Source: Octopus sinensis (Eukaryota). From it: DNA of 64,000 nt. The notes under the pieces were generated by a model. That model was given only the letters and a program-made list of their open reading frames with translations. It ran no database searches and was not told where the DNA came from. The stretch is from assembly GCF_006345805.1 (NCBI RefSeq), contig NC_043009.1:62000001-62064000 (forward strand), written 5' to 3'. Below, piece by piece: positions 1,096 through 43,150 of this stretch. Made by a program: the position numbers and the translations under genes. Numbering within the stretch: position 1 is the first letter of the stretch; every line of letters starts with the position of its first letter.

Positions 1096-1252
1096 ATCAT
1101 CATCGTTGTTGTTTAACGTCCGCTTTCCATGCTAGCATGGGTTGGACGATTTGACTGAGGGATGGCTGCGCCAGGCTTCAATCTTGATCTGGCAGAATTT
1201 CTACAGCTGGATGCCCTTCCTAACGCCAACCACTCTGAGAGTGTAGTGGATG

Positions 1253-1294
<42 letters not shown>

Positions 1295-1430
1295 CGTTAG
1301 GAAGGGCATCCAGCTGTAGAAACACTGCCACATCTGACTGGCCTGGTGCAGCCTTCGGGCTTCCCAGACCCAGTTGAACCGTCCAACCCATGCTAGCATG
1401 GAAAGCGGACGTTAAACGATGATGATGATG
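1096..1430. mobile_element. Two RTE LINE 3' tails in inverted orientation around (TA)n
   Basis: - copy 1096-1254 and + copy 1291-1430 share GGAAGGGCATCCAGCTGTAGAAA and AACCCATGCTAGCATGGAAAGCGGACGTTAAAC(GAT)n. Confidence 0.85.
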
Positions 1431-4227: not shown

Positions 4228-4490
4228 ATAATAATGATGATGATGATGAAATTATTGTATACAGTGCTCAGGTGCACCACAACTTGTCAAAAGTGCATAT
4301 AAAGCATATGCAGTAATGTACAAATGTCTGGGAAGTGAACAGTGTGAGTCAGATATATGCTTGCATGTATATGGAGGGGAGAAAATCAGGTGTAGTGTTG
4401 GCGAATCTCAGGAAGCATGGAAGTTTTGAAGGATGCAGTGCTCCGACAACTAACAACTGATGCCGGCAGTTTGTTCCATGCTTCAGCAAC
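4228..4490 (-). mobile_element. CR1/L2-group LINE 3' end
   Basis: VAEAWNKLPASVVSCRSTASFKTSM..., then 3' UTR and (CAT/TAT)n tail; related pieces at 6443-6492 and 9010-9230. Confidence 0.75.
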
Positions 4491-5752: not shown

Positions 5753-5859
5753 TGTATTATGATTTTATTTTTTATTATTATTATTATTATTTTATTTTAT
5801 TTTTTTTTTTGCTATATTTCTGTGAATGTTTTGATGTATAACTCTGTGTTCTCCTTCAG

Positions 5860-6052
5860 TCCTGCTGTCACACCTCCAAATGCTGCCACAATTCGTAATG
5901 ACCAAGAAACCCTGGAAGAATGCATGGTTTGTTCTGACATGAAGCGTGATACCCTGTTTGGCCCGTGTGTCCACATTGCAACTTGTTCTCTATGTTCTCC
6001 TCGGGTTAAGAAATGTCTCATCTGCAAAGAGCCAGTCCAGTCTCGTACAAAG
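5860..6052 (+). CDS. MIB1: MIB1 exon, RING finger 1
   Basis: CCTTCAG| acceptor; [49 protein letters not shown]; donor GTAAAA; phase fits the previous exon. Confidence 0.96.
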
Positions 6053-6500
6053 GTAAAACATTGGTCGTTCTTCCTTAGAATATTTCTTATGTAATCAAAG
6101 TGGTTTCAAATTTGTAGCCACACAGGTACACACACACACACACAAACACATATTGTGATGAACTACATCTACCAATATAATTTATGGATCTCTAAACTCC
6201 TAGAAACAATTGTTGAACTTATAACACCTTTCTTCACTTGCTTTAATTTTCTCTGTCATTTGTACTCTGTGTAAATTGGATCTATTAATATAAATATCCA
6301 AATATATATACTTAAAAATGAATCGTCTGAAAGTCTCCACCCTTTGCTTTCGCTTGTTTTGCATATATACATATTTTGTATCCAAACTATTATATTTAAT
6401 ATATTTAATTTGTTTATCTGCCCAATTGCCTCTCTCTCTCTCTCTTGTGGTGCACCTGAGCACTGTATACAATAATTTCATTATTATTATTATATATATA

Positions 6501-6699
6501 TATTTTATAGAAGGAGCTTCTACAGGACTAGAACTGTTTCATTCAGATGAAATCTTCAGGAAGCTCTTCCTGAAGATTTCATCTGAATGAAACAGTTTTA
6601 GTCCTGTAGAAGCTCCTTCTATAAAATAAATTACTTTACTCTGCTGTGTATTGAGTACCTTATTTACTGTGGTTAACCCCGACTCAACCCGGGACCTAC

Positions 6700-6700
<1 letters not shown>
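6501..6700. mobile_element. Penelope-like element terminal repeat fragment in inverted (palindromic) arrangement
   Basis: 128-bp palindrome containing a hammerhead, followed by AATAAA and a unique tail, flanked by (TA)n; family assignment is inferred from the known PLE pLTR/hammerhead association. Confidence 0.5.
6514..6566 (-). ncRNA. Type I hammerhead ribozyme motif (mirror copy on + at 6566-6612)
   Basis: GAGCUUC-CUGAAGA-U UUC AUCU GAA U-GAAA-CAG UUCUAGUC CUGU-A-GAAGCUC: 7-bp stem I, intact core, 4-bp stem III, GUA cleavage triplet; stem II closing pair atypical. Confidence 0.62.
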
Positions 6701-6731
<31 letters not shown>

Positions 6732-6982
6732 GTGTAAAACACAAAGGATCCATATCCCTTACATATATGAACACTGTAGACATATCTCTAGAAATTTAAG
6801 TGCTACCCCTATAGTGGTCCCCTTATGTAATCAATCACACTTGTTTTTGTTGGGTAACTGAGGAAGATGACCTTGTGTTTTGAAAGGTCTGTTAAGGGTT
6901 GAATCGATACATTCTGTAGTTTTATCTTCAATTCCCCCACATCTATGTGAACCTAAGTCTTTTGTTAGTATTTAACGATAAA

Positions 6983-7112
6983 TCCGAGGTCGACTTTGCC
7001 TTTCATCCTTTCGGGGTTGATAAATTAAGTACCAGTGGCGTACTGAGGTCGATCTAATTGACTGGCCCCCTCCCCCAAAATTTCAGGCCTTGTGCCTAAA
7101 GTAGAAAAGAGT
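6983..7112 (+). mobile_element. SINE family B fragment (also 14915-15090 +, 33368-33570 -, 44745-44950 -, 62590-62795 -)
   Basis: Shared GGTCGACTTTGCCTTTCATCCTTTCGGGG...AAATTAAGTACCAG in five copies. Confidence 0.75.
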
Positions 7113-7176
7113 ATTTAATGATGAATATTTGAACCATTGCTCACTGTTATTATATGAGATTTCTCTTTCTTTCCAG

Positions 7177-13066: not shown

Positions 13067-16000
13067 ATCATCATCATCGTTTAGTGTCCGCTTTCCATGC
13101 TAGCATGGGTTGGACATTTCGACCGGGGTCTGGAAAACCAGGAGGCTGCACCAGGCTCCAGTCTGATCTGGCAGTGTTTCTGCTGCTGGATGCCCTTCCT
13201 AATGCCAACCACTTCGTGAGTGTAGTGGGTGCTTTTTATGTGCCACTGGCATAGGGGCCAGAACAGGCTGGCAAACGGTCACGATCGGTTGGTGCTTTTA
13301 CATGTGACCGACACAGACGCCAGTCAGGCGGCGCTGGCATCTGCCATGTCAGATGGTGCCTTTTATGCGTCACTGGCACATCATGGGCTTTCATGTTGTC
13401 TATGACATATGAAGGTTCTGCAGTTACTTGCTTATAGTGATCCAGTGTTTGTGTTGGACATTAGATCACTCCATCCAACAGATCAACATTTCCTGTACAG
13501 ATGTTGAAGTGATTGCAGATCAGTGTGAGATGATGGAGTGCTAAGGTCGTGAACACAATGCACTGCCCAGTTGCAGGAATCAAAACCATGATTTCACAAT
13601 AATGAGTGCAACACCCTGACCACTAAGCCATGTGCCCTCAAATATGCATACATATATATATAATTGAAAAATAGGATAAAATCTTTATAGGAATTTATCA
13701 AGTAGTTAGTGTGAGAAAACTCATAAGGGAAAAACCCATCAATTATTCCTCTTAAATATATTTACTTATATTAAGGGCATTACTATACATAAGTGCCTCA
13801 CACTAGGAGGGACTCTTAAAGTCAAAACTACCATAATGAATAAACATAAACACATGGTAGTTTTGACTCCTAGTGTGAGGCATTTATGTATAGTAATGCC
13901 CTTAATATAAGTATATATATATATATATAGCTACACATATGCCAGCATGGAAAACAGGCATTAAAAGGTGATGATAATGATACATACATATGTATATATA
14001 GCTAGTGCTCTCAATATGTTCTTAAAAATCCAGCTCTAAGTGAAACAGTGCTATATGCAGAGTGGTGGCAGTCATTCTAACATGTTATAGAGATATGAGC
14101 TTTATAGGTTATTTGTAACAGTGATATAAACACAAATGGTAATAATAGGCATTACCAAGTAATTGGTAAATTCAGAAACTTGCTGTTACATCCATCAAAC
14201 ACTTAAGAATTTTAGACAGTCTTTGGGTGAGAGACTATCTAAAAACTTTTCAGTATTCGAAAGGGGTGATAGTCTCTCACCCAAAAACTATCTAAAATTT
14301 TGTGATGTGAAGGTATGATGGAATTGGGAAAGTTTAATCAGTTAAGAAGAGCTAATGTTTTAAAATGATTAAACAAGTGAAATTAATCAAAAGTACGTCA
14401 GTCTCTGCACCATTAATTCAGTTGAACTGCAACTGTGCAAATTAGAAGAGAAGCTGCTACTTTTGGGATGAGAGCCAAGGGTGTTGTTTTTTGTACATTA
14501 GTTTCTTTTCCAAGAATGCGTCTAATGTTGTTTGCCTTTCTTAACCACAACTTCTTTCAAATGCTGTCTACACAGTTCTTGGTTAATTTGTCTCAGATTG
14601 CTTTGATATTATTTATGCCCTTCAAGATGTGATAGTTTTTCCAAAAGTTCATGAATCGGCCCTTTTAATCCAAAGCTACCTCTGCAACTCGAACGACACT
14701 CTTCTTCATCACAACCCTTGCAAAACACAATCACTTTTAAGGACTTAGAGGGAGCATCATGCAATGCCCCCACAGTTCCACTACTCAAAGTGTTGACCGG
14801 CCTGTCCTGATACTTTGCAAGTTACCTTCCATTGATTTCTCCCATGTGTTCTTCCCAGGACATTGTAAGTTCTGCTATGATCAATTGCATTGCTTGGTTA
14901 ATATAATAACGTAGTAAGACGGCAAGCTTTCGTCTGTCTTTATGTTCTGAGTTCAAATTCCACCAAGGTCAACTTTGCCTTTCATCCTCTCAGGGTCGAT
15001 AGATTAAGTACCAGTTGCATACCATGATCGATCTAATCGACTGGCTCCCTCCCCAAAAATTTCAAGTCTTGTACCTCGAGTAGAAATGAATATAATAATG
15101 TAGTGTTATCCCACTGGAAAATACTGTCTGCTAGAAAAAAAAAGGGTGCTACAGCAATCAGTGCTCAGCAGGGTGTCTACAGTAGTATATAGTTTATTAT
15201 GAGGTACAGTGGTTGTGATGTTGAAAGTACATTTGATCATCTGATCAAAAGTCACTATAGTTAAGAGGAAGAAGCAGGCAGATGCCTTCCCTTTTCCTGA
15301 CTCCCATACTAACGATCTTTGTGCAGTACAAACCTAGTTTCTATTAACATATTAAGGCACAGGCATTGCTGGATGGTTAAGTTTGATTGGTAACCATTGT
15401 TTCAGGTTCAATTTCATTTTGTGCCTTGGGCAGATGTCAGCTATCCCCCCCTCCCAAGCTGACAAAGCCTTGTGGGTGGGTTTGGTAGATGGAAACTGAA
15501 AGAAGCCCATCGTATGTGTATATATGTTACTGTTTCCTTGTCTTGACATCACTTGATAGTCGTAAATGACCACCACTACCATACAAGCAGGTATCCTTTG
15601 TTTTCGTTCTTCCACGAAAAAATGTCTGGCCATGGGGAAATGCGGGGACGGCTGGCAACACGAAGGGTATCCAACCATCAAAAATCAACCTCAACAACTT
15701 CCTTCCATGTATGATTACAATGGCGATGTTGTGGTAGGATTCCCTAGGCAAGGGAGCTTACTCTGCTCTCTTTCATCTCAACTGGGACTTTTTAAGTTGT
15801 CATTTATTAACCACGAACATATTCTCAAGTTTCAATCTCTCAAAGCTGTCACCAAATATTATAATAATTTTAGTTTTTCTCTTATTTATTTTTGCTTAAT
15901 GGTAAATATATTTAAAAAATTCTTGATAAATTGTCTGCGTAAATATCTCTGCCGTGTGTCAAACACTGGATAACAGTGAACTTCTCTGATATTTACATTT

Positions 16001-42406: not shown

Positions 42407-43150
42407 TCAGGTTATGTTGAAAGTCAACAAAATTTGATTTAGAAGTGTTGAGATGTATTGAAAGATACAGATGCAGGACAATGCTAATAATGCAGCATGA
42501 ACAGGATAAACTATCCATATTTTGCAGAAAAACCTGGCTGCCGACAGATTTTTCTGCAAAATATGGATAGTTTATCCTGTTCATGCTATATTATTAGCAT
42601 TGTCCTGCATTTGAGAATAAAATTATTTCTTTGTCTATATCATTCATATGTATCATCATCATCATCATTTAACGTCCGCTTTCCATGCTAGCATGGGTTG
42701 GACGGTTCAACTGGGGTCTGGGGAGCCCGAAGGCTGCACCAGGCCAGTCAGATCTGGCAGTGTTTCTACAGCTGGATGCCCTTCCTAACGCCAACCACTC
42801 CGAGAGTGTAGTGGGTGATTTTATGTGCCACCGACACAGGTGCCAGACGAGGCTGGCGAACGGCCACGCTCGGATGGTGTTTTTTATGTGCCACTGACAC
42901 AGGTGCCAGACGAGGCTGGCAGACGGCCACGCTCGGATGGTGTATTTATGTGCCACCGACACAGGTGCCAGATGAGGCTGGCGAACGGCCACGATCGTAT
43001 GGTGTTTGTTACGTGCCCACAGCACGGAGGCCAGTCGATGCGGTACTGGCTACCGCCACATTCGGATGGTTTTCTTGTGTGCCACCGGCACTGGTACCAC
43101 AAAGATATAAATTCCATTGATGTTCATCTATTTTGATTTGATTTGATTTG

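What the first reader, a model, noticed from the sequence alone, without database searches (positions are those of the whole stretch)
6501..6628. Head-to-head twin hammerhead ribozymes locked in a 128-bp palindrome inside a MIB1 intron
Seen: two 63-nt arms with one mismatch (G:U in the + RNA) around a 2-nt loop at 6564-6565. Each strand contains a complete type-I hammerhead topology: stem I, CUGAAGA, short stem II, GAAA, stem III ACAG/CUGU and a GUA cleavage triplet. The - copy has a 7-bp stem I (GAGCUUC/GAAGCUC) and a CUAG palindrome in loop III; the + copy has a 4-bp stem I. Known: minimal, often dimer-dependent hammerheads occur in Penelope-like element pLTRs, which are often inverted. Inference: in MIB1 pre-mRNA the long hairpin should out-compete and silence the ribozyme. 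That would make it a self-masked cleavage element that A-to-I editing (abundant in coleoids) or Dicer processing could switch on or consume. Stem II lacks the usual G10.1-C11.1 pair, so activity is uncertain.
Basis: partly seen in the sequence, partly recalled or inferred. Interest (0 to 1): 0.75.

Follow-up and report, generated by a model that had tools for sequence, protein, structure and literature searches.

The report
Penelope stump folded at its start
The mirror-image sequence in this octopus MIB1 intron is one of over a thousand back-to-back stumps of a Penelope-type jumping gene, likely made when the copying enzyme ran off the capped front of the element's RNA, so it is likely a by-product and not a control switch for MIB1.

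Summary
The palindrome, both hammerhead motifs and the MIB1 intron are real, but the unit is larger: 6501-6703, with a tail on one side, set in (TA)n. It is a 5'-truncated, head-to-head insertion of a Hydra-type Penelope-like retrotransposon. Long copies lead into an RT plus GIY-YIG ORF. One 26-mer has 5,798 exact matches, and 1,020 loci share a fold-back at this spot. The U.U pair closing stem II is common in Hydra hammerheads (14 of 25 families). The fold-back point lies 29 nt behind a conserved TATA motif. An extra G precedes it in 35 of 69 TA-flanked copies but in 0 of 48 copies with intact upstream DNA. It is therefore likely the capped RNA start. Only 17 fold-backs lie near the cleavage site, so uncut RNA is likely the template. 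The hairpin should block the ribozyme (77 kcal/mol), but nothing here supports a switch; editing and cleavage are untested. The inverted architecture is published, and the scan has noted both the stump reading and the cap reading before on other DNA.

The parts
5860..6052 (+). MIB1 exon (RING finger), host gene
   Evidence: Pfam zf-C3HC4_3 E 1.6e-11; 100% identical over 64 aa to a protein named MIB1-like of Argonauta; tblastn
6053..7176 (+). GT-AG intron of MIB1 that holds the insertion; the tailed arm is in sense orientation
   Evidence: Donor and acceptor read from the sequence; flanking exons continuous in tblastn with P0005
6481..6500 (.). (TTA)n(TA)n target microsatellite, left side
   Evidence: Sequence; TA-rich flanks at the element ends in the sister loci printed
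6501..6565 (-). Inverted tail-less copy of the element's 5' leader, bases +1 to +65 (+1 = predicted RNA start at 6565)
   Evidence: Matches long copies from AG onward; tail-less arms stop at about the same point in sister loci
6514..6566 (-). Type-I hammerhead motif, minus copy; 6-bp parental stem I plus one junction pair; predicted cut after 6521; antisense to MIB1
6564..6566 (.). Head-to-head junction; C6566 is shared by both arms and reads on the minus strand as an extra G before +1 (likely a copied cap)
   Evidence: This junction type occurs in 5 of the 50 loci listed; exact 34-mer at 3 loci including this one; G statistics
6566..6612 (+). Type-I hammerhead motif, sense copy, starting at +3; 4-bp stem I; C6598T in loop III; predicted cut after 6608
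6613..6628 (+). Rest of the right arm, up to the point where the inverted arm ends
6629..6703 (+). One-sided tail: 5' leader up to +140, about 43 nt before the ORF start codon of full-length copies; last 4 nt (ATAT) shared with the target
6700..6722 (.). (TA)n target microsatellite, right side
   Evidence: Sequence

Best explanation
The palindrome is a head-to-head pair of 5'-leader fragments of an abundant Penelope-like retrotransposon inserted in (TA)n, likely made from two short cDNAs that ran off the likely capped 5' end of uncut element RNA and were joined there. Shown: the family, the parent ORF, the one-sided tail, the junction hot spot, the TATA spacing and the extra G. Inferred: (1) a TATA promoter in the pLTR starts transcription at the first base of hammerhead stem I; (2) the element's endonuclease nicks (TA)n and its RT primes internally at two A/U-rich sites, +140 and about +65; (3) each cDNA runs off the RNA start, often gaining a C opposite the cap, and the ends pair through the self-complementary AGCT or that C; (4) repair fixes the inverted repeat. 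In MIB1 pre-mRNA the antisense arm is made first and is predicted to pair with the sense hammerhead, so the insertion would be cleavage-silent and nearly neutral.
For: Family size: 5,798 exact 26-mer matches against 0 for the reversed control. Among the first 100 listed, 36 neighbouring pairs within 10 kb are head-to-head, 2 tail-to-tail and 0 on the same strand. Parent: L048 is pLTR-ORF-pLTR; L052 is an inverted pLTR, a truncated ORF, then pLTR and tail, 97.7% identical to the window arm and tail. Tail on exactly one arm in 19 of 20 pairs, on both in 0. Arms can be very unequal: in L052 a short arm joins mid-ORF, which a simple snap-back cannot give. Hot spot: 452 perfect AGCT-centred and 1,020 near junctions against 17 around the cleavage site and a second AGCT. 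TATA-to-AG distance is 29 nt in 45 of 48 copies, across subfamilies whose spacer differs at about half its positions. The base before AG is G in 35 of 69 TA-flanked copies (a lone G in 19) and in 0 of 48 copies with intact upstream DNA. Internal priming at two sites and use of uncleaved RNA were shown in vitro for Anolis PAc (PMC11167929).
Against: No RNA 5'-end data were available. The extra C could be cap-independent terminal addition; that RTs copy the cap is recalled, and searches returned no paper showing it. Seven of the 35 G cases are CAGG junction remnants, five of them clustered on C18 and possibly duplicates; without them it is 28 of 62. In fold-back junctions the G can also be read as part of the other arm. 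For short symmetrical copies, two primings and a snap-back followed by a cut cannot be told apart; PMC3846280 favours self-priming on an antisense template. Pfam found no RT or GIY-YIG hit on the ORF and no tree was built, so the clade call rests on motifs. No contig bridges this locus.
Confidence: 0.8

Rival explanations
1. Same retrotransposon stump, but the mirror arm arises by snap-back self-priming of one cDNA (or on an antisense template) at the self-complementary AGCT, with no role for the RNA start or cap.
For: 452 of 1,020 junctions are perfectly centred on AGCT; both arms of L010 share a private variant; self-priming is proposed in PMC3846280.
Against: A second AGCT 45 nt downstream lies within a stretch that yields only 17 fold-backs in all. 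TA-flanked copies without an adjacent inverted arm carry the extra G. Long asymmetric pairs exist (L052).
Confidence: 0.13
2. One reading: a self-masked ribozyme exapted in MIB1, which A-to-I editing or Dicer switches on or consumes to regulate the pre-mRNA.
For: Sense orientation in a MIB1 intron; a 63-bp hairpin is a plausible ADAR or Dicer substrate (general knowledge); the core is intact.
Against: One of at least 1,020 junctions, young, and with the weaker hammerhead on the sense strand. Editing would also hit the A-rich core (inference). Metazoan PLE hammerheads showed no cleavage as monomers and low cleavage as dimers in vitro (PMC4209133), and the PAc one needed protein.
Confidence: 0.04
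3. The palindrome is a non-autonomous element (MITE- or retrozyme-like) that spreads as a unit.
For: Identical junctions recur at unlinked loci (3 exact; 452 perfect).
Against: The same junction types recur in different subfamilies, each with subfamily-matched arms. Arm lengths run from tens of bases to kilobases. The stump lacks the TATA promoter. Retrozymes are head-to-tail tandem repeats, and 0 same-strand neighbours were found among the 100 listed hits.
Confidence: 0.02
4. Assembly or library fold-back artefact.
For: Perfect palindromes are a known chimera type (general knowledge); no read or contig bridges this locus.
Against: The arms differ at one base, the tail is one-sided in 19 of 20 pairs, junctions cluster at one position, and the 2-nt-shorter junction occurs in contigs of two sequencing runs (X15, X16).
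Confidence: 0.01

Closest known systems
Hydra clade of endonuclease-positive Penelope-like elements (Craig et al. 2021, PMC8557442), including Hydra-1_Obim and Penelope-13_HM
   Same: C-terminal GIY-YIG; RWR (for RWK), DKT, CxCx5C, CxxC and CxH motifs; (TA)n target; type-I hammerhead; U.U closure of stem II as in 14 of 25 families. Penelope-13_HM is listed with an inverted 5'-truncated copy and a hammerhead on each strand.
   Different: A different family from Hydra-1_Obim (other hammerhead stems; protein similar by eye). Loop III is 8 nt against 1-3 nt in the listed Hydra rows, stem II is only 3 bp, the tail is about 75 nt against the 30-40 nt described, and the 3' region is long and microsatellite-rich.
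Inverted pLTR plus optional tail in Adineta vaga Penelope elements (Arkhipova et al. 2013, PMC3846280)
   Same: Head-to-head inverted pLTR, tail on one side, palindromes at the junction, TATA and Inr-like motifs in the pLTR.
   Different: That paper explains the junction by self-priming on an antisense template; the passages read do not link it to the RNA start or to an extra G.
[quoted passage not shown]
   Same: Hammerhead in the pLTR, palindromic helix III region suited to dimers, and 'dual min-HHRs' 100-700 bp apart on opposite strands already reported.
   Different: Those have a long helix II and a conserved G10.1-C11.1 pair; here helix II is 3 bp with U.U, and the two motifs abut.
PAc, Poseidon element of Anolis (Frangieh et al. 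2024, PMC11167929)
   Same: Two internal RT start sites define the tail; both target strands are cut and extended; AT-rich target; uncleaved RNA is the template.
   Different: In PAc the hammerhead overlaps the start codon and priming lies inside the ORF; here both lie in a roughly 183-nt leader before the ATG.

Membership tests
EN+ Penelope-like element | Single ORF with RT followed by a C-terminal GIY-YIG endonuclease in linked long copies | tested here: met
   ORFs of 552-688 aa in L048-L052 with YRDD and an LVY...YIG-type core, read by motif; Pfam gave no hit
EN+ Penelope-like element | pLTRs in direct or inverted arrangement, with 5' truncation | tested here: met
   L048 direct, L052 inverted; 36 head-to-head pairs among 100 listed hits
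EN+ Penelope-like element | Tail on one end only | tested here: met
   19 of 20 pairs
Hydra clade | RWK and DKT motifs | tested here: met
   RWR in L048 (a variant; the other three ORFs tested lack this N-terminal part); N-terminal DKT in L049 and L050, not in L048 or L052
Hydra clade | CxCx5C linker; CxxC and CxH around the catalytic E and N; no CCHH | tested here: met
   CxCx5C in 4 of 4; CxxC and CxH in the 2 ORFs that reach the end in frame; CCHH absent by eye
Hydra clade | (TA)n insertion preference | tested here: met
   Window and sister loci
Hydra clade | Generally shorter than 3 kb | tested here: inconclusive
   Hammerhead-to-hammerhead distance in L048 is 5.8 kb, with a microsatellite-rich 3' part that may hold insertions
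Hydra clade | RT falls within the Hydra clade in a tree | not tested
   Reference proteins were seen only as text in the supplement
Type-I hammerhead ribozyme | Core C3 U4 G5 A6 N7 G8 A9, G12 A13 A14, A15.1-U16.1, H17 with three helices | tested here: met
   Sequence; among 83 copies, shared variants inside the motif fall at N7, loop II and loop III (invariance of the 3' half is partly by selection of the loci)
Type-I hammerhead ribozyme | R10.1-Y11.1 pair | tested here: not met
   U.U in 82 of 83 copies; the same in 14 of 25 published Hydra families
Type-I hammerhead ribozyme | Match to an Rfam hammerhead model | tested here: not met
   None at E <= 10
Type-I hammerhead ribozyme | Compensatory changes in the stems among copies | tested here: inconclusive
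   Stems are nearly invariant, so no covariation within the family; stems differ in sequence yet pair across Hydra families
Type-I hammerhead ribozyme | Mg2+-dependent self-cleavage | not testable with these tools
   The isolated arms do not fold into the hammerhead as their lowest-energy structure
Non-LTR retrozyme | Head-to-tail tandem hammerhead units | tested here: not met
   0 same-strand neighbours within 10 kb among the 100 listed hits; definition

The most novel reading that the evidence does not exclude
In this Hydra-type element the hammerhead is the capped first 45 nucleotides of the mRNA, so cleavage would decap the message. The thousand-odd palindromes are pairs of strong-stop-like cDNAs from uncut, capped RNA, primed from both nicked strands of a TA repeat. 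That would explain the head-to-head pLTR and one-sided tail of Penelope elements and recast the ribozyme as an off-switch for translation rather than a maturation step.
Probability: 0.4. Interest if true: 0.6.

Novelty: new member of a known kind. Interest (0 to 1): 0.33.

Why it matters
As a MIB1 feature it matters little: it is one young stump among more than a thousand. As a genomic fossil it bears on two questions that the literature read here leaves open, namely how Penelope elements form head-to-head repeats and what their hammerhead does (PMC8557442 calls both unresolved). The family gives sharp, cheap predictions: an RNA start at the first base of stem I, a cap-dependent extra base, and uncut RNA as template. 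It also implies many perfect 60-bp hairpins in octopus introns, a likely pool of ADAR or small-RNA substrates (untested).

Tried and rejected
Rfam: only generic miRNA-hairpin matches below the gathering scores; no hammerhead family. Pfam on PLE ORF pieces: no RT or GIY-YIG hit. Protein Atlas: no result. PDB sequence search with the exon: only generic RING hits, MIB1 RING3 at E 0.009. Sequencing runs: no RNA holder listed. Four contig sets laid on 5800-7100 pool thousands of copies and say nothing on editing, RNA ends or presence of the insert at this locus. Cleavage footprint: TA-flanked copies starting at the GUA cut (arm positions 42-44) were 12 of 45 loci against 7 of 45 at an equal TA microhomology 8 nt upstream (hand tally, counted); no clear peak, so no sign of in vivo cleavage. 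The 'window gap 48' printed used wrong coordinates (it is 52) and was not used. Literature searches returned nothing; others listed no paper whose title or abstract opening points to a cap-derived G or an RNA start at a PLE hammerhead. These six searches cover the open library only, so absence from print is not established. One search listed only general editing papers, none read. A covariance model was not built, because near-identical copies would match it by construction.

Full report
Observation. The 128-bp palindrome is exactly as described: 63-nt arms, one G.U mismatch and a 2-nt centre, far more stable than shuffles (z = -21). It lies in a 1,124-nt GT-AG intron. The upstream exon is 100% identical over 64 aa to a protein named MIB1-like of Argonauta and 81-94% identical to most other top MIB1 hits, and tblastn finds the following exons in order. 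The names of the closest hits point to an octopod genome. No Rfam hammerhead model matched.

It is a repeat. One arm found 57 matches from 40 scored of 821 candidates, at 94-100% identity. A 26-mer from the arm has 2,904 + 2,894 exact matches and its reversed control none. Sister loci show that the element runs on past 6628 through a tail to about 6703 and then enters (TA)n. Upstream, long copies pass through a microsatellite-rich region into an ORF. A protein search and 20 fetched stretches gave near-complete copies. L048 has a hammerhead, an ATG at +184, a 688-codon frame with the RT motif YRDD and the start of a GIY-YIG-type domain, and a second hammerhead. L052 has an inverted tail-less hammerhead arm joined to a truncated ORF and ends in a pLTR and tail 97.7% identical to the window. 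The window copy is the minimal form of L052.

Which element. The ORF carries the features listed for the Hydra clade in section 11 of PMC8557442: RWR for RWK, DKT, CxCx5C, CxxC and CxH, and no CCHH by eye, with a (TA)n target. Pfam did not recognise it and no tree was made. In the paper's File S2, 14 of 25 Hydra families close stem II with U.U, as here, and Penelope-13_HM is listed with an inverted copy and a hammerhead on each strand. PMC4209133 already notes dual hammerheads on opposite strands, and PMC3846280 describes head-to-head pLTRs with junction palindromes and a one-sided tail. The architecture is therefore published.

The hammerhead. Among 83 ungapped copies, the variants shared by several copies fall at N7 (67 A, 16 T), loop II and loop III, while core and stems vary mainly by singletons or by truncation at the 5' end. 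This fits selection on the parent elements, but 30 of the loci were picked by an exact match to the 3' half, and there is no compensatory change. The parent stem I is 6 bp. The sense copy in MIB1 has lost 2 bp of it and has C6598T in loop III, which lowers the hammerhead fold to -0.1 kcal/mol and the dimer helix to -5.8 from -12.8. In intron context the hairpin wins by 77 kcal/mol. Masking is thus predicted, but of a crippled motif.

How it formed. Of the first 100 listed 26-mer hits, 72 sit in head-to-head pairs; 23 of those 36 pairs have gaps of 59 nt or less and the next is 305. In 20 pairs examined, 19 have the tail on one arm only. Genome-wide, 452 junctions are perfect palindromes on the AGCT at the 5' edge of stem I and 1,020 lie within a few bases of it. 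Only 17 lie around the cleavage site, where a second AGCT is available, so AGCT alone does not explain the hot spot. Long copies carry a C-rich box and TATAAAT (or CATAAAT) whose first base is 29 nt before that AG in 45 of 48 copies, across subfamilies with divergent spacers. In those 48 copies the base before AG is T or C, never G. In 69 copies whose 5' end meets a TA repeat within 4 nt, it is G in 35, a lone G in 19; leaving out 7 CAGG junction remnants gives 28 of 62. Of 30 loci drawn from the 706 with G there, none had the TATA motif at the templated place and one looked like a point mutant of the upstream sequence. By hand count, 22 of the 25 imperfect junctions listed also have this G, including the window's type (5 of 50). 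I infer that the AG is the capped RNA start and that the RT copies the cap; cap copying by RTs is recalled, not sourced. The two right-hand ends (+140 and about +65) are A/U-rich, and the tail end shares ATAT with the target, matching the two internal start sites and uncleaved template shown for PAc (PMC11167929). No peak of ends at the cleavage site was seen.

Rivals. Snap-back at AGCT remains possible for symmetrical copies but does not explain the lone G or L052. A MIB1 switch has no support beyond location. The copy is young (2 differences from the column majority of 19 sister copies), and no RNA evidence could be had. A self-spreading palindromic unit is unlikely, because junction types recur separately in each subfamily. 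An artefact is unlikely given the one-sided tails and the junction seen in contigs of two runs.

Earlier notes and papers. Scan notes (unchecked AI notes) reached the stump reading in other octopus windows and the cap run-off reading in other genomes. I wrote down and tested the cap idea before seeing the latter; they are not counted as evidence. Seen: PMC4209133 outline and parts 1-2 of 4; PMC8557442 outline, passages, section 11, two supplement searches and part 2 of 59 of the supplement; PMC11167929 parts 1-2 of 4; bioRxiv 10.64898/2026.07.22.740005 part 1 of 5 (supplements closed); PMC3846280 seven passages; PMC13000458 twelve passages (one mentions non-templated G and T at R2 junctions, a cap-free precedent for extra bases). 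Unread supplement parts of PMC8557442 and PMC11167929 may bear on transcription starts.

Verdict. Real, and a new member of a known kind. The locus is ordinary. The family-level footprint of the RNA start is the part worth testing. Interest 0.33.

Noticed in passing
window 6196-6480: Repeat fragment whose TTA/TA tail received the insertion; its last 36 nt recur exactly at 4247-4282 on the other strand, and L108 holds a 76% copy. It looks like the 3' end of a LINE (inference).
   Followed up: partly
window 6984-7100: Very high-copy short repeat in the same intron, with at least 4 more copies in the window and by far the highest depth; SINE-like, not identified.
   Followed up: partly
window 13756-13920: 54-nt inverted arms around a 57-nt spacer, flanked by TA repeats, with a related sequence in L067; could be another Penelope-type stump or a MITE.
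   Followed up: partly
window 42471-42610: 66-nt inverted arms with an 8-nt spacer, no hammerhead core and no relative among the fetched loci.
   Followed up: no
window 1198-1322 and 14194-14312: Two further hairpins; the first is a 32-nt inverted repeat around a (TA)n run.
   Followed up: no
window 26392-63522, minus strand: Exon-like frames rich in FxFG repeats and a zinc-finger-like CxxC pattern, resembling nucleoporin Nup153 (name recalled, not searched), convergent with MIB1.
   Followed up: no
L060-L065: A second, more distant family of the same ORF type (about 50% identity) with Asn-rich stretches after the RT, recalling the N-rich inserts of Adineta Penelopes; no hammerhead was found in the stretches fetched.
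   Followed up: no
L116: Junction with repeated re-copying of the first 10-15 bases of the leader, suggesting multiple template jumps at the RNA start.
   Followed up: no
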